NCBI GenBank assembly: GCA_017882835.1
Contig: JADGOU010000001.1
Location: 1-35,736 of the forward strand
Length of the DNA stretch: 35,736 nucleotides
Source of the DNA: Frankiaceae bacterium
GTDB lineage: Bacteria > Actinomycetota > Actinomycetes > JADGOU01
Reading direction: 5' to 3'
Below, piece after piece: positions 2,657 through 34,929 of the stretch. Under the pieces are notes generated by a model. That model made no database searches and was not told the origin of the DNA. It saw only the letters and a program-made list of their open reading frames with translations. Within the stretch, counting starts at the first letter, position 1; every line of letters begins with the position of its first letter. Position numbers and translations under genes: made by a program.

Positions 2657-3898
2657 TCAGGCGTCGGCAGCGTTGGCGAGAGCCGCGAACGCCGGCTCCA
2701 TCGCCGCGATCTCGGAGGCGGGGAGCTGGTGGAGTCCGGCGACGTGGCGCCATCGGCTCACCGCGGCTGCCACCTCCCGCATCGTCGCTCGGGCCTGGGC
2801 CTCGGAGAGCCGGAAGTACTCGGCGACGGAGAGGGCGGAGGACAGACTGGCACTGTCGTCGGCGTCGCCGATCGCGGTGCTGAGGTACTTGGGGCCGGGG
2901 GCCGGGTTCGGATTGAGGTCGAATGCCGGCGCGAGACGCCACACGTCGCCGCGCTCGTGGAGGAATCCGTGGTTGCGCAGGTGGTCGTCGGTGTTCGAGA
3001 TTAGAACGGACAGCACGATGCGTCGCCATAGTTGATGCAGCTCCGCTGTGGCGCGCGCGGAGGAGTTCTCGATGACCTCCGCGATCTCGAGGTAGCTGCG
3101 CTGGTCACCGTCGGATGCCTCGAGCATCGTCATCGCGCTGACGTAGCCGATCCGGTCAGCTGTGCTGGTGCGGTCGAACCGGTCGATGACCAGGACGTTA
3201 CGGCCGGCGAGGTTCAGCAGCCGCGACGGTGGCACGTCGATGCCCGAGCGTTCGGCGAGGTCGAGGGCGACCTTCTCCCAGGCCATCACGTTCCACGTGT
3301 CGTGGTTGGCGCTGGGGAACTTCGCGATCGCGATCCGGCCGTTGTTGTCGAGCACGTGCGTCTTCGGGCGGGCTCCACCCAGGGAACTGCCGACACGGAT
3401 GAGGCGTTGCAGGTCGGCCAGATCGGCGGTGTCGCTATCGGCACGAGCCGCCAGGTCCAGCAACGCGGGCAGGTCGGTCAGCGCAGGCACGCCGGTGTCG
3501 TCGCTGGCGAGGAACTCATCGGCACCAGCGCGGAACCGCAGGGCGCCCTGGCGCAGGTCGTCCCGCACACCCAGCAGATAGTCGATCTCGCCGAGGGTCC
3601 GGGTGGCCCGCCCGTCGGCGCGGGCGAGCGCGGCTTCGCGGCGGGTGAGCAGGGTCCGTCCCCAGCGGTCAGGTGCGCAGTCGGTGAGGGCCCCAAACAA
3701 TGCCCTGCCCACCCGTGTCTGCAGCGCGCCGCTCGTGAGGGGGAGTTCCGGGTCGAGTGCGTAGGTGCCCGGGGTGCCGAGGTAGGTGGAGGTGTAGGTG
3801 AAGGTGGCGGACTCGAGACCGCGGCGCCGGTGCGAGTACAGGGTGCCGGCGAGGACATCGTCGCCGCCCACAGCGACGTAGACCTGCACCTCGGTCAC
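2657..3898 (-). CDS. hipA: HipA-family serine/threonine kinase toxin
   Basis: 413 aa. It has the N-terminal coupling region, SSLGGARPKTHV, IDRFDR, the catalytic loop NTDDHLRNHGF and APAFDLNPNP. GTG 3898 overlaps the hipB stop (GTGA). Confidence 0.9.
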   Translation of the reverse strand: MTEVQVYVAVGGDDVLAGTLYSHRRRGLESATFTYTSTYLGTPGTYALDPELPLTSGALQTRVGRALFGALTDCAPDRWGRTLLTRREAALARADGRATRTLGEIDYLLGVRDDLRQGALRFRAGADEFLASDDTGVPALTDLPALLDLAARADSDTADLADLQRLIRVGSSLGGARPKTHVLDNNGRIAIAKFPSANHDTWNVMAWEKVALDLAERSGIDVPPSRLLNLAGRNVLVIDRFDRTSTADRIGYVSAMTMLEASDGDQRSYLEIAEVIENSSARATAELHQLWRRIVLSVLISNTDDHLRNHGFLHERGDVWRLAPAFDLNPNPAPGPKYLSTAIGDADDSASLSSALSVAEYFRLSEAQARATMREVAAAVSRWRHVAGLHQLPASEIAAMEPAFAALANAADA

Positions 3899-27584: not shown

Positions 27585-28820
27585 TCATTCCGAGGACTGG
27601 AGGGGGTCGACCAAGGTCGCCGGGCGCACGGCGCCGGCGCCGAACCGGTGGGCAGCCCGGTCGGCGGCCTGCTCGGCCTCCCGCCACCCGCTGTCCCGCT
27701 CGCCCAGGATGAGCTGCCGGGGCACCCCGGCCGCGGGAGTCAGACCCTCGACCCGGACGCCGACGAGCCGCAACCGAGCCCGCTGCAAACCGAGCCCGTC
27801 GAACAACATCCGACCAGTGTCGTAGACGGTGCGGCCCACGTCCGTAGCCGAAGGCAGGGTCCGGGACCGGCTCAGCGTGGTGAAGTCGGCAAAGCGCACC
27901 TTGATGCTGACCGTGCGCCCGACCTGGCCGGTGGCCCGCAGCCGCACTGCGGTGCGCTCGGCCAGTCGAAGCAGCTCGCGGTGGATCACCGCTGGATCGT
28001 CGACATCGGTGGGGAAGGTCTCCTCGGCCCCGATGCTGCGGTCCGGCTCGTGCGGGACGACCACCCGGTCGTCGCGTCCCCAGGCCAGCGCCGCCAGGTG
28101 CCCCCCGGCCGCGGGACCCAGTGCCCGCTGCAGCGTGCAGACCGGCACGCGGGCCAGGTCGCCGACGGTGCGCAGCCCGAGCCGGAGGAGCTGCTCCTCG
28201 GTGCGCTCTCCCACCCCCCACAGCGCAGCCACGGGCAGCGGGTGCAGGAACGCGACAACATCGTCGGCCGGTACGACGAGCAGGCCGTCGGGTTTGCAGC
28301 GGGCGGACGCCAGCTTGGCGACGAACTTCGTGCTGGCGACGCCCACTGAGCAGGTGATGTCCTGCTCGTCCTGTACTCGGGCGCGGATCAGCTCGCCGAT
28401 CTGCGCCGGCCGGCCGAGCCGGCGACGGGCCCCGGCGACGTCGAGGAACGCCTCGTCCAGCGACAGCGGCTCGACCAGCGGAGTGACCGCCCGGAACACC
28501 TCCATGACCCCGGCTGAGGCGTCTTGGTAGGCAGCGAAGTCGGGCGGGATCACGACCGCGGCCGGGCACAGCCGGCGAGCCCGCATCATCGGCATCGCGC
28601 TGTGCACGCCGTACGCCCGGCACTCGTAGGTAGCGGAGAGCACCACACCGCGCGACCCGGTGCCGCCGACGATGACCGGCCGCCCCCGCAGCTCCGGCCG
28701 TCGGCGCAGCTCGACACTGGCGTAGAAAGCGTCCATGTCGATGTGCAAGATGTGACAGCCGGCGTCGTCGCCCACCGGGTCGGCGCCCGGGCCGACCGGC
28801 GGGACGCGCCCGCGACTCAT
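27585..28820 (-). CDS. dinB: DNA polymerase IV (catalytically competent Y-family DinB)
   Basis: 411 aa. It has HIDMDAFYASVE and SLDEAFLD (catalytic acidic residues present, so it is not ImuB-like), SVGVASTKFVAKLAS, and LWGVGERT. Confidence 0.9.
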   Translation of the reverse strand: MSRGRVPPVGPGADPVGDDAGCHILHIDMDAFYASVELRRRPELRGRPVIVGGTGSRGVVLSATYECRAYGVHSAMPMMRARRLCPAAVVIPPDFAAYQDASAGVMEVFRAVTPLVEPLSLDEAFLDVAGARRRLGRPAQIGELIRARVQDEQDITCSVGVASTKFVAKLASARCKPDGLLVVPADDVVAFLHPLPVAALWGVGERTEEQLLRLGLRTVGDLARVPVCTLQRALGPAAGGHLAALAWGRDDRVVVPHEPDRSIGAEETFPTDVDDPAVIHRELLRLAERTAVRLRATGQVGRTVSIKVRFADFTTLSRSRTLPSATDVGRTVYDTGRMLFDGLGLQRARLRLVGVRVEGLTPAAGVPRQLILGERDSGWREAEQAADRAAHRFGAGAVRPATLVDPLQSSE

Positions 28821-28916: not shown

Positions 28917-29669
28917 TCACGGTCGGCGAGCGAGCACGTGCAGCTGGGTGGCGACCTCGCGAAACGCCGGTCGGTCGGCGACGGCGAGCTCGAGCTCGGC
29001 CAGATGCGCCAGTGCTGCCGGGTCAGAGTCGAGCAGGTGACCGGCCACGAGCTCGGTGAAGGTCCGCACGCCGTGCACTGCCTCGACGACCAGCCCGACC
29101 TCGTCGAGCAGCGCAGTGAGATCGGCCAGGGCGAACCGACGGACCGCGCCGTCACCCGCCCCCCACCGGCCGGCCGGATCGTCGAGCGCGTGGCGCGCCT
29201 CGGTGAAGTGACCGACCAGTGCCCGGCTGAACACCACCGCGGTCCGGTTGGCAGCGAGCACGCTGATGCAGCCACCGGCGCGCATGGCCGCGGCCGCCTG
29301 ACCCAGTGCGGCCGCGGGGTCCTCGACGACCTCCAGCACGCTGTGGCAGAGCACGAGGTCGCAGCTGCCCGGCGCCACCACTTCCGACAGCGTCGCCAGA
29401 TCACCTTGCCGGGCGTGGACCCAGTCGCACACGCCCGCTTCGGCGGCCCGGCGCCCCAGGGCTGCCAGCGAGTCCGGGCTGGGATCGACGACGGTGACCT
29501 GGTGGCCCAGCTGAGCCAGCGGGACGGCGAATCCCCCGGTGCCGCCGCCGGCATCCAGCACGGCGAGTGGTCCGTCGGCGGCTCGGCTGTCGAGCTCGGC
29601 CTGCAGCGCTGCCCACACCACCGCGGTGCGCACCGAGATGCGGTGCCGCGACGAGGGACTATCCGGCAC
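28917..29669 (-). CDS. Class I SAM-dependent methyltransferase
   Basis: 250 aa. It has motif I VLDAGGGTGGFAVPLA and an acidic post-I VVDPS. GTG 29669 has an AAGGAGG SD 6 nt upstream. Confidence 0.8.
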   Translation of the reverse strand: MPDSPSSRHRISVRTAVVWAALQAELDSRAADGPLAVLDAGGGTGGFAVPLAQLGHQVTVVDPSPDSLAALGRRAAEAGVCDWVHARQGDLATLSEVVAPGSCDLVLCHSVLEVVEDPAAALGQAAAAMRAGGCISVLAANRTAVVFSRALVGHFTEARHALDDPAGRWGAGDGAVRRFALADLTALLDEVGLVVEAVHGVRTFTELVAGHLLDSDPAALAHLAELELAVADRPAFREVATQLHVLARRP

Positions 29670-29876: not shown

Positions 29877-32800
29877 TCAGCCACCGGAGCTGCCCGGACT
29901 GGAGTGCCAGAGTCGTCGCGGTGCCCCCGCGTCGCCGGACGGACGGACGTCGGCGTACGGCGACGGGCCGGTCGGTGCACCGACGGGGGCTGCACCGGTG
30001 GATCCAGCACGGGTGGGTGCCGGGGTCATCACCGGACGGGTGGAGCGGCTCTCGGCCGCGCCGTGGACGGCCTGCTCCGTCACCATCGCCGGTCGGTTCA
30101 TCGCCGCCTGGACCGCGACCGCTCCGCCGCGGCGCCACGCGGCCTGCAGGGCGGGCAACTCCCAGCACCCGGTTGCCTGCATCGACACCCCGCGCGGACC
30201 GGTCCGCCGAATGCGGCCGCGGATGACGAGCAGCCAGCAGTGGAAGACCGTCGAGGCGTAGCCCACCTGGGCGTCTTCGAAGAACGTCGCATCGAGCGGT
30301 CCAGTGGCGTCGTCGAGGGTGACGAACACGACCCGCCGCCCGGACCGGATCGGCGGAGTCTGGGTGGCCACCTTGACTCCGGCGACGAGCACCTCCTGCC
30401 GACTGCGACAGCGCAGCAGGTCGCGGGCCCGGGTCATACCCAGGGCCTGCAAGAACGGCTCGTAGAAGTCCAGGACATGCCGGCTGGCATCGAGCCCGAG
30501 GACGGCGAGCTCGGCGCGCACCCGCTCGGCATCGGTCATCTCCGCCAGCCCGCTGGGTCGGATCTCGGCCGGGTCGTCGCCGAGGTCGAAGGCGAGCTGG
30601 ACGTCGACCGGGGCCGGCGGCCGCGGAGCCTGGGACTGCCGGGCGGCCAGGTCCCGGATCCGGGAACCGTCGGTGTCCGCAGACCGCGCGACGGTGGCCA
30701 GACTGCCCGACCCGCGGCGAACGGCGCGGGTCCAGGTATCGAGCTCGATCACCTGCAGCAGCAGGTCCCGGCGGGTCACGGCACCTCGGCGCCGGACCGG
30801 AGCCGGAGAGCCCAGCCCGTAGAGGGAGTCGAACGCTCCGGCGACGACGATCCGCTCGATGACCGGCCGGGAGACGGCGGCCCGGTGCCAGAAGTCCGAC
30901 AGCGAGGCATATGGCCGCCCGGCGACGATCCGCGCGGTCTCCGCAGCGCTGATCCCCTTGACGTCGGCGAGGCCAAGTCGGATGCCGTAGGCCCGAGCGT
31001 CCGGACCGACCGGCGGCGCCGGTCGCGGCGGGGCGTCCAGGATTCCCGGCGGCGGTTCGTCGAGGACCCCGACCCGCTCCACCCGGTACTCCGGGTCGGA
31101 GCGGTTGACGTCCAGCGGCAGCACGGCGATGCCGAACTGCCGGGCGTCGTCGAGGATCAGCCGCTTCGGGTACATCCCCGGGTCGTGGGTGAGCACCCCG
31201 GCGAGGAACGCCGCCGGGTGGTGCGCCTTCAGCCACGCCGACTGGTAGGTCGGCAGAGCGAACGCGGCCGCATGCGCCTTGCAGAACCCGAAGGACCCGA
31301 ACGCCACCAGCACCGTCCAGGCCCGTTGCGCCAGATCGGCGTCGTAGCCGGCGGCGAGCACCGCCGGGACGAACTGGGCTCGGATCTCCGGGTGTGCCTC
31401 CGGGTTGCCCAACGCCCGGCGCACCTCGTCCGCCTCGGCCAGCGAGCACCCGGTCAACGCCGCGACGATGCGCAGCACCTGCTCGTGGAAGACCACGACG
31501 CCGGAGGTTTCGGTGAGCGCCGGGGTGAGGTCGGGATGCAGGTAGTCGGGTGGCCGCCAGCCGTGCCGCGCCTGCAGGAACGGCGTGACCATGTCGCTCT
31601 TCACCGGCCCGGGGCGGAACAGCGAGATGTCGATGATGAGGTCGGCGAACGACTCCGGCGCGAACTTCCCGACCAGCTCCCGCTGGCCGGGTGACTCGAT
31701 CTGAAAACAGCCCAGGGTCCGGGTGGACTGGACCAGTCGGAAGGTCTCCGGGTCGTCGCGCGGTACGGCGTCGATGTCGATGTCGATGCTGTCGACCCGC
31801 TTGACCTCGGCGACCGCGTGCGCCATCGCCGACTGCATCCGGATCCCGAGCACGTCGAGCTTGAGCAGGCCGAGGTCTTCGACGTCGTCCTTGTCGAACT
31901 GGCTCATCGGGAACCCGAGCCAGCTCGCCTCCACCGGGGTGCGGTCGAGCAGCGTCGCGTCCGAGAGCAGGACCCCGCACGGGTGGACGGCGATGTGACG
32001 GGGCAGCCCGTCGAGCCGCTCGACCAGCCGGAAGAGCAGGTCGAGCCGGCCACCGCTGGTGCCGCCGCCGTCCCCGCCGCTTCCTCCGCCGCCGAGCCCG
32101 CTGGCGCGCAGCTCCGGCAGGTCCCGCAGCGCCGCCCGCACCTGGCTGGCCCGGATGTGCGGGAACGCCTTCGCCACGGCGTCGATCTCCCCGGGCGGCA
32201 GGCCGAGCGCCGCGCCCACGTCCCGGATGGCGTGTCGCGCGCGGTAGGTGTCCATCATCGACACGCAGGTGCAGCGCTCCCCGCCGTACCGGGTGAGGAT
32301 GGCCTCGTAGACCTCGGTACGTCGGGCCGACTCCACGTCGACGTCGATGTCCGGCAGTGCCGCCCGCAGCGGGGACAGGAACCGCTCCATCAGCAGGCCG
32401 TAGCGCAGCGGGTCCACGTCGGAGATGCCGAGCAGGTAGTTGACCAGGCTGCCCGCCCCCGACCCGCGCGCGGCACAGCGCACGCCGAGGCTCTTGATCA
32501 GGTCGACGACGTCGGCAACGGTGAGGAAGTACGCCGGATAGCCCAGCGACCCGATGACCGTGAGCTCCTCGTCGAGCCGGGTACGGGCGGAGTCGGTGGC
32601 AGACAGGCCGCGGCGGCCGAAGCCGGCCTCGCACCGGCCGCGCAGCGTCTCCTCCGCCGGTCGGTCGGTCGGCCCGGTGCCGTCGAGCTCCGGGAAGTGC
32701 ACGGTGCCGATGCCGAGGTCCACCCTCGGGTCGACGGCGCACCGGTCGGCGACCGCCCGCGCCCGAGCGAGCAGAGTCCGCCGCCCGGACTCGCCGATGC

Positions 32801-33614
32801 CGGCCAGGGTGGCGAGCTCCCCAGCAACCTCGGCCATCTCCTTGCCGGACTTCAGGTATCCCTCGGCGTTGCCCCGGTCGACGTGGCGGGGATCGAGGAC
32901 CACCAGCCGGCGGGCCGCGTCGAGCACGTCAGCGGTGGGTCCGTCCGTGCGGTCGACGTGCCGGACGGCGTTGGTGAGCACTGTCGAGACGCCCTGCTCG
33001 GCCGCGAAGCCGACGGCGCGCGCCGCGCGGACGGCGTCGCCGCGGCCCCGGTGGGAGACCAGCTCGACTACCAGATCGGTCTGCGCCACCACGGCCCGCC
33101 AGCGGTCGAGGTGCCCGCGGGCCAAGTCAGGACGGCGGACGGCGAGCGCGCGGCCGACGTCGGAGTCCGGCCCGAGCAAAACGAACACTCCGCCCGCGGC
33201 CGCGTGCTCGGCGATCAGGTCAGAACTGCAGACCGGCCGGCCCCGCTCGCCGGCGAGATGGGTTGCGCTGACCAGTCGGCACAACGCGGCCCATCCCCCG
33301 GCATGCTGCGCAATCAGCGTCACCCGAGGGTGCCGCGGGTCGACGAACGCGCCCCCGCGGGCGGGGGTGCGTCGGCGTGGACCTTCGCCGGACCCTCCCG
33401 CCACCGCCAGGTCCACGCCGAAGATCGGCCGAAGTCCGGCCGACATGCACGCCTTCGCGAACTTGACCGCTCCATAGAGGCCGTCGCGGTCGGTGAGGGC
33501 GAGCGCGTCCATGCCGTGCTCCGCGGCGCGCTCGACCAGGACGTGCGGATGGGAGACGCCATAGCGCAGCGAGTAGCCGGACGCGACGTGCAGATGGACG
33601 AACGGGTCGGACAT
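29877..33614 (-). CDS. dnaE2: C-family DNA polymerase III alpha-type protein, DnaE2-like (paralog assignment tentative)
   Basis: 1245 aa. It has a PHP-like N-terminus FVHLHVASGYSLRYG. The polymerase catalytic motifs are ALPDIDVDVES and LLKLDVLGIRM, and there is FGFCKAHAAAFA. An OB-like region VVFVTLDDATGPLDATFFE lies near the C-terminus, followed only by a low-complexity tail with no tau-binding-like domain. A damage-type promoter heads the operon. Confidence 0.8.
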   Translation of the reverse strand: MSDPFVHLHVASGYSLRYGVSHPHVLVERAAEHGMDALALTDRDGLYGAVKFAKACMSAGLRPIFGVDLAVAGGSGEGPRRRTPARGGAFVDPRHPRVTLIAQHAGGWAALCRLVSATHLAGERGRPVCSSDLIAEHAAAGGVFVLLGPDSDVGRALAVRRPDLARGHLDRWRAVVAQTDLVVELVSHRGRGDAVRAARAVGFAAEQGVSTVLTNAVRHVDRTDGPTADVLDAARRLVVLDPRHVDRGNAEGYLKSGKEMAEVAGELATLAGIGESGRRTLLARARAVADRCAVDPRVDLGIGTVHFPELDGTGPTDRPAEETLRGRCEAGFGRRGLSATDSARTRLDEELTVIGSLGYPAYFLTVADVVDLIKSLGVRCAARGSGAGSLVNYLLGISDVDPLRYGLLMERFLSPLRAALPDIDVDVESARRTEVYEAILTRYGGERCTCVSMMDTYRARHAIRDVGAALGLPPGEIDAVAKAFPHIRASQVRAALRDLPELRASGLGGGGSGGDGGGTSGGRLDLLFRLVERLDGLPRHIAVHPCGVLLSDATLLDRTPVEASWLGFPMSQFDKDDVEDLGLLKLDVLGIRMQSAMAHAVAEVKRVDSIDIDIDAVPRDDPETFRLVQSTRTLGCFQIESPGQRELVGKFAPESFADLIIDISLFRPGPVKSDMVTPFLQARHGWRPPDYLHPDLTPALTETSGVVVFHEQVLRIVAALTGCSLAEADEVRRALGNPEAHPEIRAQFVPAVLAAGYDADLAQRAWTVLVAFGSFGFCKAHAAAFALPTYQSAWLKAHHPAAFLAGVLTHDPGMYPKRLILDDARQFGIAVLPLDVNRSDPEYRVERVGVLDEPPPGILDAPPRPAPPVGPDARAYGIRLGLADVKGISAAETARIVAGRPYASLSDFWHRAAVSRPVIERIVVAGAFDSLYGLGSPAPVRRRGAVTRRDLLLQVIELDTWTRAVRRGSGSLATVARSADTDGSRIRDLAARQSQAPRPPAPVDVQLAFDLGDDPAEIRPSGLAEMTDAERVRAELAVLGLDASRHVLDFYEPFLQALGMTRARDLLRCRSRQEVLVAGVKVATQTPPIRSGRRVVFVTLDDATGPLDATFFEDAQVGYASTVFHCWLLVIRGRIRRTGPRGVSMQATGCWELPALQAAWRRGGAVAVQAAMNRPAMVTEQAVHGAAESRSTRPVMTPAPTRAGSTGAAPVGAPTGPSPYADVRPSGDAGAPRRLWHSSPGSSGG

Positions 33615-33620
33615 CAGGTG

Positions 33621-34160
33621 TCACCCGGTCCGACCGCGCGCGCCCGACGGCACCGCGACCCCCGGCAGGACCGGCTGGTGGGTCAACCCGAGGGTGACCT
33701 CGACGACCGCGAGGAACGCCTCGGCGTCCCGGAGCAGGTCGTCGGCCTCGCGGTCCGACACCGCCCGCGGCAGCCCGGCCTCGGCCGCGGCGCGCTTGGC
33801 GGCTCCCGCAGCGAAGAACGCCGCCCACTCCTCGAGCTCCGGCGCGATCGCGGGCAGCAGCACCCAGACACTGGTGGGCCGGCTACGCCGCGGCCCCGGT
33901 CGGTCCGGTTGGACCCGCGCGGCCAGGACGGCCGCCGCCGCGCGGAGCGCCGCCAGATGCGCGGTAGCGTAGCGCTCGGGCGCCCGGGTCAGGCCGGCCG
34001 CCTCGACCAGCCCGCGCCGCGCCGCGCCGAGCAGCGTGGCGGCGGATCTGCCGGTGGCAGGGCTGGCTCCCACGGGTTTGGCACTGGCGGCCTGGCCGCG
34101 AGCGGCAGCCAGCCGGGCGTCAGCTAGCCGGGTCGGGGTGCCGGGCGGAGTCGATAGCAT
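33621..34160 (-). CDS. HEPN-like all-alpha protein (resembles the SAV_6107-type family), no Rx4-6H motif seen
   Basis: Track ORF 33621..34427 trimmed to ATG 34160. Motifs: ERYATAHLAALRAAAAVLAAR.., VWVLLPAIAPELEEWAAFFAAGAAKRAAAEAG, VSDREADDLLRDAEAFL. It ends 6 nt before the polymerase ATG. Confidence 0.65.
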   Translation of the reverse strand: MLSTPPGTPTRLADARLAAARGQAASAKPVGASPATGRSAATLLGAARRGLVEAAGLTRAPERYATAHLAALRAAAAVLAARVQPDRPGPRRSRPTSVWVLLPAIAPELEEWAAFFAAGAAKRAAAEAGLPRAVSDREADDLLRDAEAFLAVVEVTLGLTHQPVLPGVAVPSGARGRTG

Positions 34161-34173
34161 GGAGGACACCTCG

Positions 34174-34638
34174 TCAGTCCAGGGCTCGGGCAACTGTCCA
34201 GCTGCCGGCCGACCAGTCGAAGCACAGGTCATAGACCCCGGCGCCGCCCGGCCGCCCCGCCGTCGCCTCGACCCGCCAGTACTCCCGCTCGCCGTCGTCA
34301 ACGGACGCCGGCCCCGTAGCGGCGCCGACATCAGGCGCGAGCTCACCCCAGGCCCGTTGCGCCCACTTCGGGGAGGCCGGGATTGGGGCGACCACCAGCT
34401 CAGCTGCCCGGGCACTCTTGGCGCCACCTAGACCGGGAGACGGGTGCCCGCCGGTGGCTCGGGAGCCAGTCTCTCCAGACGACAGCGCGGTCGCCGCAGC
34501 CGCGCGCCACCACTGGCCGGACTCGGTCCAGTGGGCCTGGATGACTTGGACGACGTAGTGCCGGCCACGCCAGCCGAACTGCGTCGGCACGTCATCGTGT
34601 CGCTGCACCTGCACCAGGTCGGCGTACAACCGGGTCAT
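34174..34638 (-). CDS. DUF6504-like protein
   Basis: Track ORF 34174..34800 trimmed to ATG 34638, with a strong AAGGAG SD. Motifs: MTRLYADLVQVQRHDDVPTQFGWRGRHYVVQVIQAHWTESGQWW and EREYWRVEATAGRPGGAGVYDLCFDWSAGSWTVARALD. It ends 13 nt before the HEPN-like gene. Confidence 0.65.
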   Translation of the reverse strand: MTRLYADLVQVQRHDDVPTQFGWRGRHYVVQVIQAHWTESGQWWRAAAATALSSGETGSRATGGHPSPGLGGAKSARAAELVVAPIPASPKWAQRAWGELAPDVGAATGPASVDDGEREYWRVEATAGRPGGAGVYDLCFDWSAGSWTVARALD

Positions 34639-34880
34639 CACTACTCCTTTCCTTCCCCATGCGTCTGCGCAGTTGCGTCCGCGCCAGGTAGGCCGCGGGT
34701 GCCGGGGGAAGGCGGCGTCGGCGGCACCGGCCCGGGTGGGACGCTTCCCCACGTCACACCCGGGCCAGCACCTCCGCCGCGGCGCACGGGGGTCTAGCAC
34801 CGTGCGCCGGACGAAGGGGCTCCAAGCCCCACCGTCAGCGCCGGAGACCCGCGAGAGCCCCGGCGCCGGGTTGGCGATGA

Positions 34881-34896
34881 TCGAACAGATGTTCGA
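34881..34896. promoter_or_regulatory. LexA (SOS) box TCGAACAGATGTTCGA
   Basis: A perfect palindrome that matches the actinobacterial/Gram-positive LexA consensus TCGAAC-N4-GTTCGA. It is the only such site I found in the window. Confidence 0.75.
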
Positions 34897-34906
34897 GTCA
34901 GAAGTC

Positions 34907-34929
34907 AGAGTAAACCCTCACTCCGACAA
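34907..34929 (-). promoter_or_regulatory. RecA-NDp / PafBC-type damage-inducible promoter motif
   Basis: The minus strand reads TTGTCGGAG-tgagggtt-TACTCT. The remembered consensus is tTGTCRgtg-N8-TAnnnT. The LexA box starts 10 nt downstream of the -10 hexamer. Confidence 0.55.

What the first reader, a model, noticed from the sequence alone, without database searches (positions are those of the whole stretch)
33621..34929. Damage-inducible DUF6504-like / HEPN-like / C-family polymerase operon with no ImuA'/ImuB partner
Three minus-strand genes are packed with 13-nt and 6-nt gaps: a 154-aa DUF6504-like protein, a 179-aa HEPN-like all-alpha protein lacking an obvious Rx4-6H nuclease motif, and a 1245-aa DnaE2-like polymerase. 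The only promoter-like signal upstream combines a RecA-NDp/PafBC-type motif with a perfect LexA box. Canonical error-prone DnaE2/ImuC acts with ImuB (an inactive Y-family, clamp-binding protein) and ImuA/ImuA'. Neither is present in this window, and the Y-family gene nearby is a catalytically intact DinB. The two small uncharacterised proteins occupy the slots where accessory factors normally sit. My hypothesis is that they are alternative accessory or regulatory subunits of a translesion 'mutasome'. This is inference from gene order and promoter signals only.
Basis: partly seen in the sequence, partly recalled or inferred. Interest (0 to 1): 0.7.

Follow-up and report, generated by a model that had tools for sequence, protein, structure and literature searches.

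The report
Damage-induced split-ImuB polymerase operon
This is a DNA-damage-switched operon for an error-prone DNA copying machine of a recently described actinobacterial type, in which the "missing" ImuB partner is present as a small stand-alone protein, and which also carries a conserved HEPN protein and a structured RNA leader that I found described nowhere in the literature searched.

Summary
Three tightly packed minus-strand genes, with 13-nt and 6-nt gaps, follow a perfect LexA box placed just downstream of a RecA-NDp/PafBC-type promoter.

DUF6504 (PF20114) is the ImuB C-terminal domain (ImuB-C). The 154-aa protein is therefore a stand-alone ImuB module, not an alternative to ImuB.

The real unit has five genes: imuB-C, HEPN_SAV_6107, dnaE2, a SAM methyltransferase and a catalytically intact Y-family polymerase with a RecA-N-terminus-like tail. 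This matches the "DnaE2B-PolY-ImuB-C-RecA" putative mutasome of Actinobacteria (NAR 2026, PMC12926913). That paper reports such genomes lack imuA and imuB.

- The gene order is conserved in about 70 Frankiales-like genomes.
- The LexA box is present in 73 of 74 upstream regions.
- The polymerase is 57% identical to a published DnaE2B.

Three things appear unreported:
- The HEPN gene sits between imuB-C and dnaE2 in every PolY-containing locus I could inspect, including Janibacter indicus, one of the paper's own examples. The paper never mentions HEPN or the methyltransferase.
- The HEPN family keeps an RYxxAH (R-x4-H) motif.
- The operon has a covarying, roughly 75-nt structured leader RNA with no Rfam match.

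The HEPN function remains untested.

The parts
34907..34928 (-). RecA-NDp (PafBC-type) promoter motif, TGTCGGAG-N8-TACTCT. TACTCT is the presumed -10 element.
   Evidence: It has one mismatch to TGTCGGTG-N8-TAnnnT. The same motif lies about 31 nt upstream of the LexA box in most of the 44 of 74 related loci and in Janibacter. PafBC acts through RecA-NDp (PMC6789036). Function here is inferred.
34881..34896 (.). LexA (SOS) box, TCGAAC-N4-GTTCGA. It is a perfect palindrome 10 nt downstream of the -10 hexamer, so it would overlap the transcription start.
   Evidence: It is the only exact match in the window. It is present in 73 of 74 orthologous upstream regions. It matches the experimentally defined Streptomyces LexA motif tCGAAC-N4-GNNCGa (PMC9380542).
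34639..34880 (-). Long 5' leader (242 nt) between the LexA box and the imuB-C start codon.
   Evidence: The leader is 140-260 nt in 62 related loci. Conserved sequence blocks are seen in alignment A4.
34700..34773 (-). Conserved structured RNA motif inside the leader. It is a stem-loop with an invariant GGGGAA loop, followed by an invariant CUUCCCCCGG.
   Evidence: RNAalifold predicts 24 pairs, 16 with compensatory changes. 93.6% of cells are paired against 83.4% in shuffles. 92 double-change cells compare with 23 expected (0 of 500 shuffles) and with 11-21 in slid controls. Covariance model R1 scores 81.6 bits here. It hits once per locus, 71 times in 1.37 Mb, always just upstream of imuB-C except one second copy. 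No Rfam family matches.
34174..34638 (-). imuB-C: a stand-alone ImuB C-terminal domain protein (DUF6504), 154 aa. It has a beta core plus a disordered, clade-specific insert.
   Evidence: PF20114 matches at E=1.4e-14. Homology to ImuB C-termini is shown. AlphaFold2 gives beta strands at residues 7-39 and 118-152 with block-mean pLDDT of roughly 63-89, and residues 42-113 disordered. The paper's ImuB-C proteins are DUF6504 proteins.
33621..34160 (-). HEPN_SAV_6107 family protein, 179 aa, all-alpha, with an invariant R63-x4-H68.
   Evidence: PF18726 matches at E=6e-36. AlphaFold2 gives pLDDT 82 and the best PDB match is the HEPN protein 2hsb (probability 1.0, TM 0.62). The gene is present between imuB-C and dnaE2 in all 73 related loci with enough flank, and in Janibacter, Ornithinimicrobium and L087.
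29877..33614 (-). DnaE2B-type C-family DNA polymerase, 1245 aa. It has a degenerate PHP site and conserved C-terminal tail motifs.
   Evidence: Domains are. NCBIfam DnaE1 and error-prone models both score below their cut-offs (658.7 against 1002; 654.7 against 939). It is 57% identical to Janibacter DnaE2B APH01279. The PHP positions read LRYG and TDRDG. The tail carries SPYAD..RRLWHSSPGSSGG.
28917..29669 (-). Class I SAM-dependent methyltransferase, 250 aa, located between dnaE2 and polY.
   Evidence: Methyltransf_11/12/25 match at E about 1e-15. The gene is conserved at this position in 46 related loci and in Janibacter at 45% identity. It is absent in Ornithinimicrobium and L087.
27585..28820 (-). 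Y-family polymerase (DinB/PolY-core type), 411 aa. Catalytic residues are intact and the C-terminus has a RecA-N-terminus-like motif (DRAAHRFGAGAVRPATL).
   Evidence: IMS, IMS_C and HHH domains are found. NCBIfam Pol IV scores 400 bits, above its cut-off of 367. DMDAFYAS and SLDEAF are visible. It is 65% identical to Janibacter PolY APH01281, which the 2026 paper places in its group of PolYs reported to carry the RecA-NT motif.

Best explanation
The locus is a chromosomal five-gene translesion-synthesis operon, in the order imuB-C(DUF6504), HEPN_SAV_6107, dnaE2, SAM-methyltransferase, polY(dinB-type). It belongs to the actinobacterial "DnaE2B-PolY-ImuB-C-RecA" class of putative mutasomes.

**Likely mechanism** (steps marked shown or inferred)
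1. Without damage, LexA sits on a perfect SOS box that overlaps the start of a RecA-NDp promoter. Sequence and conservation are shown; binding is inferred.
2. After damage, RecA-stimulated LexA cleavage and PafBC activation switch on the operon. This is inferred from the Streptomyces and mycobacterial regulons.
3. A conserved structured leader RNA adds a post-transcriptional step of unknown logic. The structure is shown by covariation; the function is unknown.
4. The small beta-barrel ImuB-C protein docks on the inactive PHP domain of DnaE2B. The active Y-family polymerase binds RecA through its RecA-N-terminus-like tail. Together these give a two-polymerase lesion-bypass complex, and no ImuA or full-length ImuB is needed. 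This step rests on published AlphaFold models of orthologues, not on a test here.
5. The HEPN protein is a conserved fifth component of the PolY-containing version. I think it is most likely a non-polymerase regulatory or adaptor factor. It might gate assembly or expression, possibly through RNA. Co-occurrence is shown; the function is inferred and weak.
For: **DUF6504 is ImuB-C**
- Shown, and by the NCBI names of the paper's ImuB-C proteins.

**Conserved operon**
- The order imuB-C, HEPN, dnaE2, (MTase), polY is found in essentially all 79 related loci with enough flank.
- Median gaps are about 0-20 nt between imuB-C, HEPN and dnaE2 and 24 nt between MTase and polY (130 nt between dnaE2 and MTase), and 4-bp overlaps between HEPN and dnaE2 are common.
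- The same five genes occur in Janibacter indicus CP013290. That locus is a modelled example in PMC12926913.
- Identities to Janibacter are 57% (DnaE2B), 65% (PolY), 45% (MTase) and 49% (HEPN, over 78 residues).

**Regulation**
- The LexA box is present in 73 of 74 loci and the NDp motif in 44 of 74, mostly at about 31-nt spacing.
- Streptomyces dnaE2-dinP are LexA targets induced 30-fold and 14-fold by mitomycin C (PMC9380542).

**The polymerase is not replicative**
- It scores below the DnaE1 NCBIfam cut-off.
- Two of the first four canonical PHP residues are replaced.

**Published system**
- DnaE2B genomes lack imuA and imuB, and tetramer models exist (PMC12926913).

**HEPN linkage**
- HEPN is present with PolY-containing operons in the window, 73 loci, Janibacter, Ornithinimicrobium, L087 and L089.
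- It is absent from the two-gene imuB-C/dnaE2 loci of Nonomuraea and Arthrobacter.
Against: - No experiment or complex prediction was possible for this window's own proteins.
- The rest of the genome could not be searched, so I cannot show that imuA'/imuB are absent or that a separate dnaE1 is present in this organism.
- S. coelicolor dnaE2 knock-outs show no UV phenotype (PMC3273824), so a mutagenic role for DnaE2B-type enzymes is unproven.
- The published tetramer models do not need HEPN.
- Tessaracoccus appears to lack HEPN, judging from consecutive accession numbers. I did not verify this.
- HEPN_SAV_6107 also occurs without any polymerase: next to a membrane protein beside an integrative element in Streptomyces, and next to a UvrD-like helicase. 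It is therefore not a dedicated polymerase subunit family.
Confidence: 0.8

Rival explanations
1. Both small proteins are novel, non-homologous substitutes for ImuA' and ImuB in a new kind of mutasome.
For: No imuA'/imuB is in the window. The small genes occupy the upstream slots and are co-regulated.
Against: DUF6504 is homologous to the ImuB C-terminal domain. This stand-alone form is already described with DnaE2B (PMC12926913; PMC6511836). HEPN is all-alpha, whereas ImuA is a RecA homologue (PMC6511836). In the published models RecA itself fills the ImuA role.
Confidence: 0.1
2. The HEPN gene is an SOS-induced toxin or RNase module carried inside the polymerase operon. It would slow growth or cleave RNA during damage rather than act as a polymerase subunit. 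This would resemble the yafN-yafO toxin-antitoxin pair in the E. coli dinB operon, a parallel I draw from my own knowledge.
For: An R[YF]xxAH (R-x4-H) motif is kept in 106 of 117 alignable family representatives. It is invariant in close relatives. Paralogues pair with membrane proteins beside a mobile element or a helicase. There are weak matches to the defence-candidate family PDC-M05B at E=7e-4 to 4e-5. HEPN domains are typically RNases (PMC3710099).
Against: The motif is not at the canonical end-of-helix-3 position. The 2013 HEPN census lists this family as lacking the motif. The Janibacter operon copy has R..R instead of R..H. No antitoxin-like gene is in the operon. The gene lies in a core chromosomal position with 4-bp overlaps to dnaE2.
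Confidence: 0.25
3. The polymerase is the organism's replicative DnaE1, and the small genes are unrelated neighbours.
For: The NCBIfam DnaE (658.7 bits) and error-prone (654.7 bits) models score almost equally. The rest of the genome was not available.
Against: Both scores are far below their cut-offs. A perfect, conserved LexA box controls the operon. The PHP site is degenerate, although actinobacterial DnaE1 depends on PHP proofreading (PMC3919608; PMC11348249 abstract). The protein is 57% identical to a classified DnaE2B, and gene order is conserved in genomes that have a separate DnaE1.
Confidence: 0.03
4. The cluster is a mobile or defence island. HEPN plus a methyltransferase would suggest a restriction-like or abortive-infection system that happens to include polymerases.
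For: HEPN and the methyltransferase give weak PADLOC matches (PDC-M05B; mad2 at E=4.6e-16, confined to residues 31-159 of the methyltransferase). Streptomyces plasmids carry dnaE-polY-lexA cassettes next to transposon genes.
Against: The operon keeps the same core chromosomal position in distant genera. In the window it lies beside DUF3040 and, about 6-7 kb further on, the dcw cell-division cluster, and in Janibacter and Ornithinimicrobium it lies between polyprenyl synthase/Rv2175c/PknL-like genes and DUF3040. GC content is 0.71-0.76 across the operon, like most of the window. No integrase or transposase is nearby.
Confidence: 0.03

Closest known systems
DnaE2B-PolY-ImuB-C-RecA putative mutasome of Actinobacteria (Janibacter indicus, Kineococcus radiotolerans, Nocardioides, Ornithinimicrobium, Tessaracoccus; NAR 2026, PMC12926913)
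   Same: It has the same polymerase clade (57% identity), the same stand-alone ImuB-C/DUF6504 and the same active PolY with a RecA-NT-like tail. Gene order and chromosomal neighbourhood also match.
   Different: Nothing differs in composition. The publication does not mention the HEPN_SAV_6107 gene, the methyltransferase or any leader RNA. The window's clade also adds a 45-60-aa disordered insert with an invariant motif in ImuB-C, and a structured leader.
Mycobacterial / proteobacterial ImuA(ImuA')-ImuB-DnaE2(ImuC) mutasome
   Same: It is a LexA-controlled accessory C-family polymerase that works with an ImuB-C domain. In the published AlphaFold model the ImuB C-terminal beta-barrel contacts the DnaE2 PHP domain.
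   Different: Here ImuB is split into a stand-alone ImuB-C and a catalytically active Y-family polymerase. There is no ImuA in the window. The polymerase tail ends in ...LWHSSPGSSGG, whereas the ImuC proteins I inspected end in SRDFH or SRNFQ (PMC3919608).
Streptomyces dnaE2-dinB2 operon (DnaE2B-iPolY-RecA)
   Same: It has a DnaE2B-type polymerase followed by a Y-family gene. It is a LexA target and is damage-induced. It shares the C-terminal tail motif.
   Different: The Streptomyces Y-family partner is reported to be catalytically dead, and no ImuB-C is reported. A Streptomyces plasmid copy lacks the IMS catalytic domain. The one Streptomyces HEPN_SAV_6107 member inspected sits elsewhere, next to a membrane protein.
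E. coli dinB-yafN-yafO-yafP operon (from my own knowledge, not checked here)
   Same: It is an SOS-regulated Y-family polymerase operon that also carries a toxin-type small protein and a small-molecule-modifying enzyme.
   Different: The protein families are unrelated (YafO/YafN against HEPN; an acetyltransferase against a methyltransferase). There is no C-family polymerase and no ImuB-C.
HEPN superfamily, SAV_6107 family (Anantharaman et al. 2013, PMC3710099)
   Same: The Pfam match is E=6e-36 and the helical fold resembles solved HEPN domains.
   Different: The 2013 census recorded no motif and no gene context for this family. Here a conserved RYxxAH motif and a recurrent polymerase-operon context are seen.

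Membership tests
ImuB-C / DUF6504 (PF20114) | Significant match to the family profile | tested here: met
   54.6 bits against a gathering score of 24.2, E=1.4e-14.
ImuB-C / DUF6504 (PF20114) | Homology to the C-terminal region of bona fide ImuB from imuA-imuB-dnaE2 cassettes | tested here: met
   A Rhizobium ImuB C-terminus hits PF20114 weakly, at E=0.05 below the curated cut-off. ImuB fragments carry PF20114. 19 of 20 ImuB-C sequences match, best E=2.6e-8. hhalign on insert-free alignments gives 89.5% probability, E=2e-6. A first hhalign that included the insert failed at 6.6%.
ImuB-C / DUF6504 (PF20114) | Predominantly beta structure with no close PDB fold | tested here: met
   AlphaFold2 predicts strands at 7-39 and 118-152. 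No PDB match has E<1. This agrees with the "novel beta-barrel" description in PMC12926913.
ImuB-C / DUF6504 (PF20114) | Binds the PHP domain of DnaE2 | not testable with these tools
   Only published AlphaFold models of orthologues exist.
DnaE2B-PolY-ImuB-C-RecA system | Polymerase belongs to the DnaE2B clade | tested here: met
   57% identity over the full length to Janibacter APH01279, which is classified as DnaE2B. It is about 30-35% identical to plasmid-borne polymerases annotated as error-prone. No phylogenetic tree was built.
DnaE2B-PolY-ImuB-C-RecA system | Adjacent stand-alone ImuB-C and an active Y-family polymerase with a RecA-NT-like motif | tested here: met
   The catalytic D and DE residues are present. 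The C-terminal GWREAEQAADRAAHRFGAGAVRPA aligns with the paper's PolY tails (GWRDADRAVDRASARFGAGSVRP).
DnaE2B-PolY-ImuB-C-RecA system | Genome lacks imuA and imuB | not testable with these tools
   Only 35.7 kb of this genome is available, and none is found in it. The general statement comes from PMC12926913.
Canonical ImuA-ImuB-DnaE2A (ImuC) cassette | Full-length, catalytically dead ImuB and an ImuA/ImuA' gene in the cassette | tested here: not met
   The Y-family gene is catalytically intact and lacks a fused ImuB-C. No RecA-like ImuA is in the window.
Canonical ImuA-ImuB-DnaE2A (ImuC) cassette | C-terminal SRDF[H/R] motif of DnaE2 (present in about 77% of DnaE2 sequences, so not universal) | tested here: not met
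   The window protein ends in ...PRRLWHSSPGSSGG. The Pseudomonas and Rhizobium ImuC proteins end in SRDFH and SRNFQ (PMC3919608).
Replicative DnaE1 | Reaches the NCBIfam equivalog cut-off and has an intact PHP metal site | tested here: not met
   658.7 bits against 1002. The PHP positions read LRYG (D lost) and TDRDG (H lost).
HEPN superfamily (HEPN_SAV_6107, PF18726) | Profile match and HEPN-like helical bundle | tested here: met
   E=6e-36. pLDDT is 82. The top Foldseek hits are HEPN proteins 2hsb, 1wol, 3o10 and 7bxo, but the best E-value is only 0.14.
HEPN superfamily (HEPN_SAV_6107, PF18726) | Catalytic Rx4-6H motif at the end of helix 3 | tested here: inconclusive
   An invariant R63-x4-H68 exists, but at the start of helix 60-82. 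The last helix has R137 and R144 and no H. The Janibacter copy has R..R.
LexA (SOS) regulon | Actinobacterial SOS box TCGAAC-N4-GTTCGA in the promoter | tested here: met
   A perfect box is present and conserved in 73 of 74 loci. Binding and induction were not tested.
PafBC regulon | RecA-NDp motif (tTGTCRgtg-N8-TAnnnT; consensus recalled from Gamulin et al. 2004) | tested here: met
   One mismatch, conserved in 44 of 74 loci, mostly at about 31-nt spacing from the LexA box. PafBC dependence was not tested.

The most novel reading that the evidence does not exclude
The HEPN_SAV_6107 protein would be an unrecognised fifth, RNA-directed component of the actinobacterial DnaE2B-PolY-ImuB-C mutasome operon. 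It would be SOS-induced and would use its conserved RYxxAH site to bind or cut RNA. The target could be the operon's own conserved structured leader, itself a new cis-regulatory RNA class. This would time or limit expression and assembly of the error-prone polymerases.
Probability: 0.15. Interest if true: 0.7.

Novelty: new member of a known kind. Interest (0 to 1): 0.45.

Why it matters
Error-prone C-family polymerases drive damage-induced mutation and drug resistance in Actinobacteria, including mycobacteria. How the many DnaE2 enzymes that lack ImuA and ImuB are recruited and controlled was only outlined computationally in 2026.

This window shows that the "orphan" polymerase is not orphan. 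It also gives three concrete, testable additions to that model:
- a HEPN protein that always accompanies the PolY-containing version;
- a methyltransferase that usually accompanies it;
- a covarying leader RNA placed downstream of a dual LexA/PafBC promoter.

If the HEPN protein or the leader controls mutasome output, that would be a new layer of regulation of induced mutagenesis. If not, the locus is an ordinary member of a published class.

Tried and rejected
- **First hhalign.** The first profile-profile comparison of DUF6504 (A1) against ImuB-C (A2) gave only 6.6% probability. The cause was the clade-specific insert and shallow alignments. Repeating it with insert-free sequences gave 89.5%.
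- **Structure databases for DUF6504.** The PDB sequence search returned only chance lectin hits at E about 1. Foldseek on the model found nothing below E=4.
- **HEPN against plasmids.** tblastn of HEPN against the plasmid collection, which includes the mislabelled Nonomuraea chromosome, found no match. DUF6504 found only Nonomuraea.
- **Blocked look-ups.** The Kineococcus and Nocardioides ImuB-C proteins were not on record. For those two genomes the presence of an intervening gene is inferred only from accession gaps.
- **Short contigs.** Several divergent HEPN representatives lay on contigs too short to show context.
- **Rfam.** No family reached its gathering score. The only sub-threshold hit was "mraW RNA" on the opposite strand at 20.5 bits, which I regard as chance.
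- **Outer leader hairpins.** RNAalifold found no consensus structure for the outer leader blocks in the MAFFT alignment. Only the central element is claimed.
- **Extra gene.** Pfam found nothing for the extra gene inserted between dnaE2 and the methyltransferase in some loci, nor for ORFs upstream of the promoter.
- **Not possible.** No multimer prediction tool was available.
Full report
**1. The observation**

- On the minus strand, a 154-aa gene (34174..34638) matches Pfam DUF6504 (PF20114, E=1.4e-14).
- A 179-aa gene (33621..34160) matches HEPN_SAV_6107 (PF18726, E=6e-36).
- A 1245-aa gene (29877..33614) has the full domain set of a C-family polymerase alpha subunit.
- The gaps are 13 and 6 nt.
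- Upstream lie a perfect palindromic LexA box, TCGAACATCTGTTCGA (34881..34896), and the motif TGTCGGAG-N8-TACTCT (34907..34928). The second is one mismatch from the RecA-NDp consensus.
- The LexA box is the only exact match in the 35.7-kb window.

These signals are not chance. In 74 related upstream regions the LexA box is present 73 times. The NDp motif is present 44 times, in most of them about 31 nt upstream of the box. That spacing puts the operator just downstream of the -10 hexamer.

**2. The unit is larger than reported**

tblastn of the window's proteins on 79 related loci shows one conserved arrangement wherever the contig is long enough: DUF6504, HEPN, polymerase, usually a SAM methyltransferase, then a DinB-type polymerase. 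The loci were fetched with the DUF6504 alignment and are mostly Frankiales-like or "Mycobacteriales" MAGs, plus Acidothermaceae, Jiangellales and Nanopelagicales.

Gaps are small, and 4-bp overlaps between HEPN and the polymerase are common. In the window the methyltransferase is 28917..29669 and DinB is 27585..28820.

DinB keeps the catalytic DMDAFYAS and SLDEAF motifs. It passes the NCBIfam Pol IV cut-off.

The rest of the window carries the dcw cell-division cluster, a MoxR/DUF58/TgpA triad and a DUF3040 gene. No imuA', imuB or other polymerase gene is present.

**3. What DUF6504 is**

A bona fide ImuB from a Rhizobium imuA-imuB-dnaE2 cassette gave a weak DUF6504 hit exactly at its C-terminus. 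Its sequence shares the WRG..., G.WW and R(D/E)(Y/W)(F/W).VE motifs with the window family.

- Searching with that C-terminus returned many fragments named "protein ImuB" or "DNA polymerase Y family protein". Most carry precomputed PF20114.
- 19 of 20 such sequences hit PF20114, best E=2.6e-8.
- A first profile-profile comparison failed at 6.6% probability. The window's clade has a 45-60-residue insert that confounded it.
- With insert-free stand-alone proteins against 122 ImuB C-termini, hhalign gave 89.5% probability and E=2e-6 over 57 columns.
- AlphaFold2 predicts a beta core (strands 7-39 and 118-152) and a disordered insert. No PDB structure resembles it.

DUF6504 is therefore the ImuB C-terminal domain (ImuB-C). 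In the published AlphaFold model of the M. tuberculosis mutasome this beta-barrel contacts the DnaE2 PHP domain and contributes to ImuA binding, and experimentally the ImuB C-terminal extension binds both DnaE2 and ImuA.

**4. Literature**

- Timinskas and Venclovas (2019, PMC6511836) described mutasome variants with stand-alone ImuB-C. They reported the Streptomyces DnaE2/DinB2 pair as lacking it.
[quoted passage not shown] It states that DnaE2B genomes encode neither ImuA nor ImuB. It defines two Actinobacteria-only systems, DnaE2B-[ImuB-C]-PolY-RecA and DnaE2B-[ImuB-C], with AlphaFold tetramer and dimer models.
- The ImuB-C sequences in its supplement (for example FLWRGRLW...WRVEAGRG...) are plainly the window's family. 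NCBI names four of the five looked up "DUF6504 family protein"; the Arthrobacter one is named 'hypothetical protein'.
- The window polymerase is 57% identical to Janibacter DnaE2B, and the window DinB is 65% identical to Janibacter PolY.
- Their C-terminal tails share the RecA-N-terminus-like motif.

The window polymerase is not a DnaE1.
- It scores 658.7 bits against a cut-off of 1002.
- Two of the first four canonical PHP metal ligands are replaced.
- It is controlled by an SOS box.

It is not a DnaE2A/ImuC either. It lacks the SRDF[H/R] end and instead carries a conserved tail, SPYAD(I/V)(K/R)P(A/S)G...PR(K/R)LWHSSPGSSG.

**5. What is not in the literature I could search**

The 2026 paper never mentions HEPN or a methyltransferase. 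The 2013 HEPN census lists the SAV_6107 family with no motif and no context. "DUF6504" occurs in no paper in the library.

The accession numbers of the paper's own examples skip one gene between ImuB-C and DnaE2B, and one between DnaE2B and PolY.

- Fetching the Janibacter indicus locus confirmed the skipped genes. The order is DUF6504, HEPN_SAV_6107, DnaE2B, methyltransferase, PolY, DUF3040.
- Ornithinimicrobium has the same arrangement without the methyltransferase. So does a divergent metagenomic locus.
- The two-gene ImuB-C/DnaE2B loci of Arthrobacter and Nonomuraea have neither HEPN nor PolY.

HEPN therefore tracks the PolY-containing version in every locus I could inspect. Tessaracoccus may be an exception, judging from consecutive accession numbers, but I did not verify this.

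**6. The HEPN protein**

- The AlphaFold2 model is confident (pLDDT 82). Its best PDB matches are HEPN domains: 2hsb at probability 1.0 and TM 0.62, then 1wol, 3o10 and 7bxo. The best E-value is only 0.14.
- The family is large: 1181 representatives at 50% identity, all short stand-alone proteins.
It is kept as R[YF]xxAH in 106 of 117 alignable representatives.
- The motif lies at the start of helix 60-82 rather than at the canonical end of helix 3. The Janibacter copy reads R..R. Catalytic competence is therefore unresolved.
- Family members also occur without polymerases. One lies next to a membrane protein beside an integrative element in Streptomyces. Another lies between a UvrD-like helicase and a membrane protein.
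- There are weak matches to the defence-candidate family PDC-M05B.

HEPN_SAV_6107 is thus a reusable module, not a dedicated polymerase subunit family. Its role in this operon could be adaptor, regulator or toxin.

**7. Regulation and the leader**

Streptomyces dnaE2-dinP are direct LexA targets, induced 30-fold and 14-fold by mitomycin C (PMC9380542). PafBC activates genes through RecA-NDp (PMC6789036). The window's promoter combines both signals, which suggests activation by PafBC and repression by LexA. This is an inference.

Between the operator and the start codon lies a leader of 140-260 nt in most relatives. It contains invariant blocks.

The central element has strong covariation support.
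- RNAalifold predicts 24 pairs, 16 with compensatory changes.
- 93.6% of cells are paired, against 83.4% in shuffles.
- 92 double-change cells compare with 23 expected (0 of 500 shuffles) and with 11-21 in slid controls.

A covariance model built from 36 sequences finds the motif once per locus, 71 times in 1.37 Mb. The hits are always on the coding strand just upstream of imuB-C, and about 34 of them come from loci not used to build the model. One second copy lies in front of dnaE2 in L030. The motif is absent from the Janibacter, Ornithinimicrobium, Nonomuraea, Arthrobacter and Streptomyces loci.

No Rfam family matches. The invariant GGGGAA loop is complementary to the invariant downstream CUUCCCC. 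That could form a pseudoknot or compete with the GGAGG ribosome-binding site, but this was not tested.

**8. Verdict**

The operon is a damage-regulated accessory-polymerase system without canonical ImuA'/ImuB. However, DUF6504 is ImuB-C, not an alternative to it.
- The whole arrangement belongs to a class published in 2026.
- The remaining open and apparently unreported points are the obligatory HEPN gene, the frequent methyltransferase, the conserved polymerase tail and ImuB-C insert motifs, and the structured leader.
- I rate the locus as a new member of a known kind, with moderate interest.

Noticed in passing
window 34700-34773 (-), within leader 34639-34880: A conserved, covarying structured RNA motif lies in the 5' leader of the operon. 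It has an invariant GGGGAA loop and a downstream CUUCCCCCGG. It has no Rfam match. Covariance model R1 finds it once per related locus (71 hits in 1.37 Mb).
   Followed up: partly
L030:11115-11186 (+): A second copy of the leader RNA motif (80.8 bits) lies between the HEPN gene and dnaE2 in one related genome. This suggests the element can act directly in front of the polymerase gene.
   Followed up: no
window 34321-34386 (-) (ImuB-C residues 85-106): A clade-specific disordered insert in ImuB-C carries a near-invariant peptide, PIPSSPKWAQRAWGEPAPDVGA, with pLDDT below 50. It looks like a short linear interaction motif. It is absent from the shorter ImuB-C proteins of other lineages.
   Followed up: partly
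window 29880-29963 (-) (polymerase C-terminal tail): Two conserved tail motifs are present, SPYAD(I/V)(K/R)PxG and PR(K/R)LWHSSPGSSG. They are shared by PolY-linked DnaE2B enzymes, Nonomuraea and Streptomyces plasmid DnaE. They are absent from Arthrobacter DnaE2B, and proteobacterial ImuC has an SRDFH-type end instead. An internal QLAFDL may be a clamp-binding motif.
   Followed up: partly
window 33957-33974 (-) (HEPN residues 63-68): An invariant RYATAH (R-x4-H) motif lies at a non-canonical helix position. It is conserved in about 90% of family representatives but replaced by R..R in Janibacter.
   Followed up: partly
L091:10001-11016 and L085:6089-9950: HEPN_SAV_6107 paralogues occur outside polymerase operons. 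Each is followed by a predicted membrane protein. One lies beside a Streptomyces integrative element (SpdB, FtsK-like, Prim-Pol). The other follows a UvrD-like helicase. Both give weak PADLOC PDC-M05B matches.
   Followed up: partly
L003:14950-16520, L054:14740-16225 and 9 other related loci: An extra stretch of 1.0-1.9 kb lies between dnaE2 and the methyltransferase and may hold an additional gene. The ORFs tested in it have no Pfam match.
   Followed up: partly
window 1-27487; L092 and L093 flanks: The operon occupies a conserved core chromosomal position. In the window it lies next to DUF3040, TgpA, DUF58, MoxR and the dcw cluster (rsmH, ftsI, murE, murF, murD, ftsW, murG, murC, ftsQ). In Janibacter and Ornithinimicrobium it lies between polyprenyl synthase/Rv2175c/PknL-like genes and DUF3040.
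   Followed up: partly
window 2657-3898 (-): A HipA-like kinase gene (HipA_C, E=1.3e-47), a toxin-type persistence kinase, lies beyond the ftsQ end of the dcw cluster.
   Followed up: no
L001 (Streptomyces sp. NBC_00147 linear plasmid, 38104-51556): A plasmid-borne cluster carries dnaE, a truncated Y-family gene lacking the IMS catalytic domain, lexA and Ku. It lies next to Tn7-like (TnsA, Mu transposase C-terminal) genes, so this looks like a mobile version of the DnaE2B/inactive-PolY pair.
   Followed up: no
NZ_LT559118.1 (L002): The 11.85-Mb Nonomuraea gerenzanensis record in the plasmid collection is really a chromosome. It has an 88-aa ImuB-C gene abutting dnaE2, with no detectable HEPN or PolY.
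   Followed up: partly
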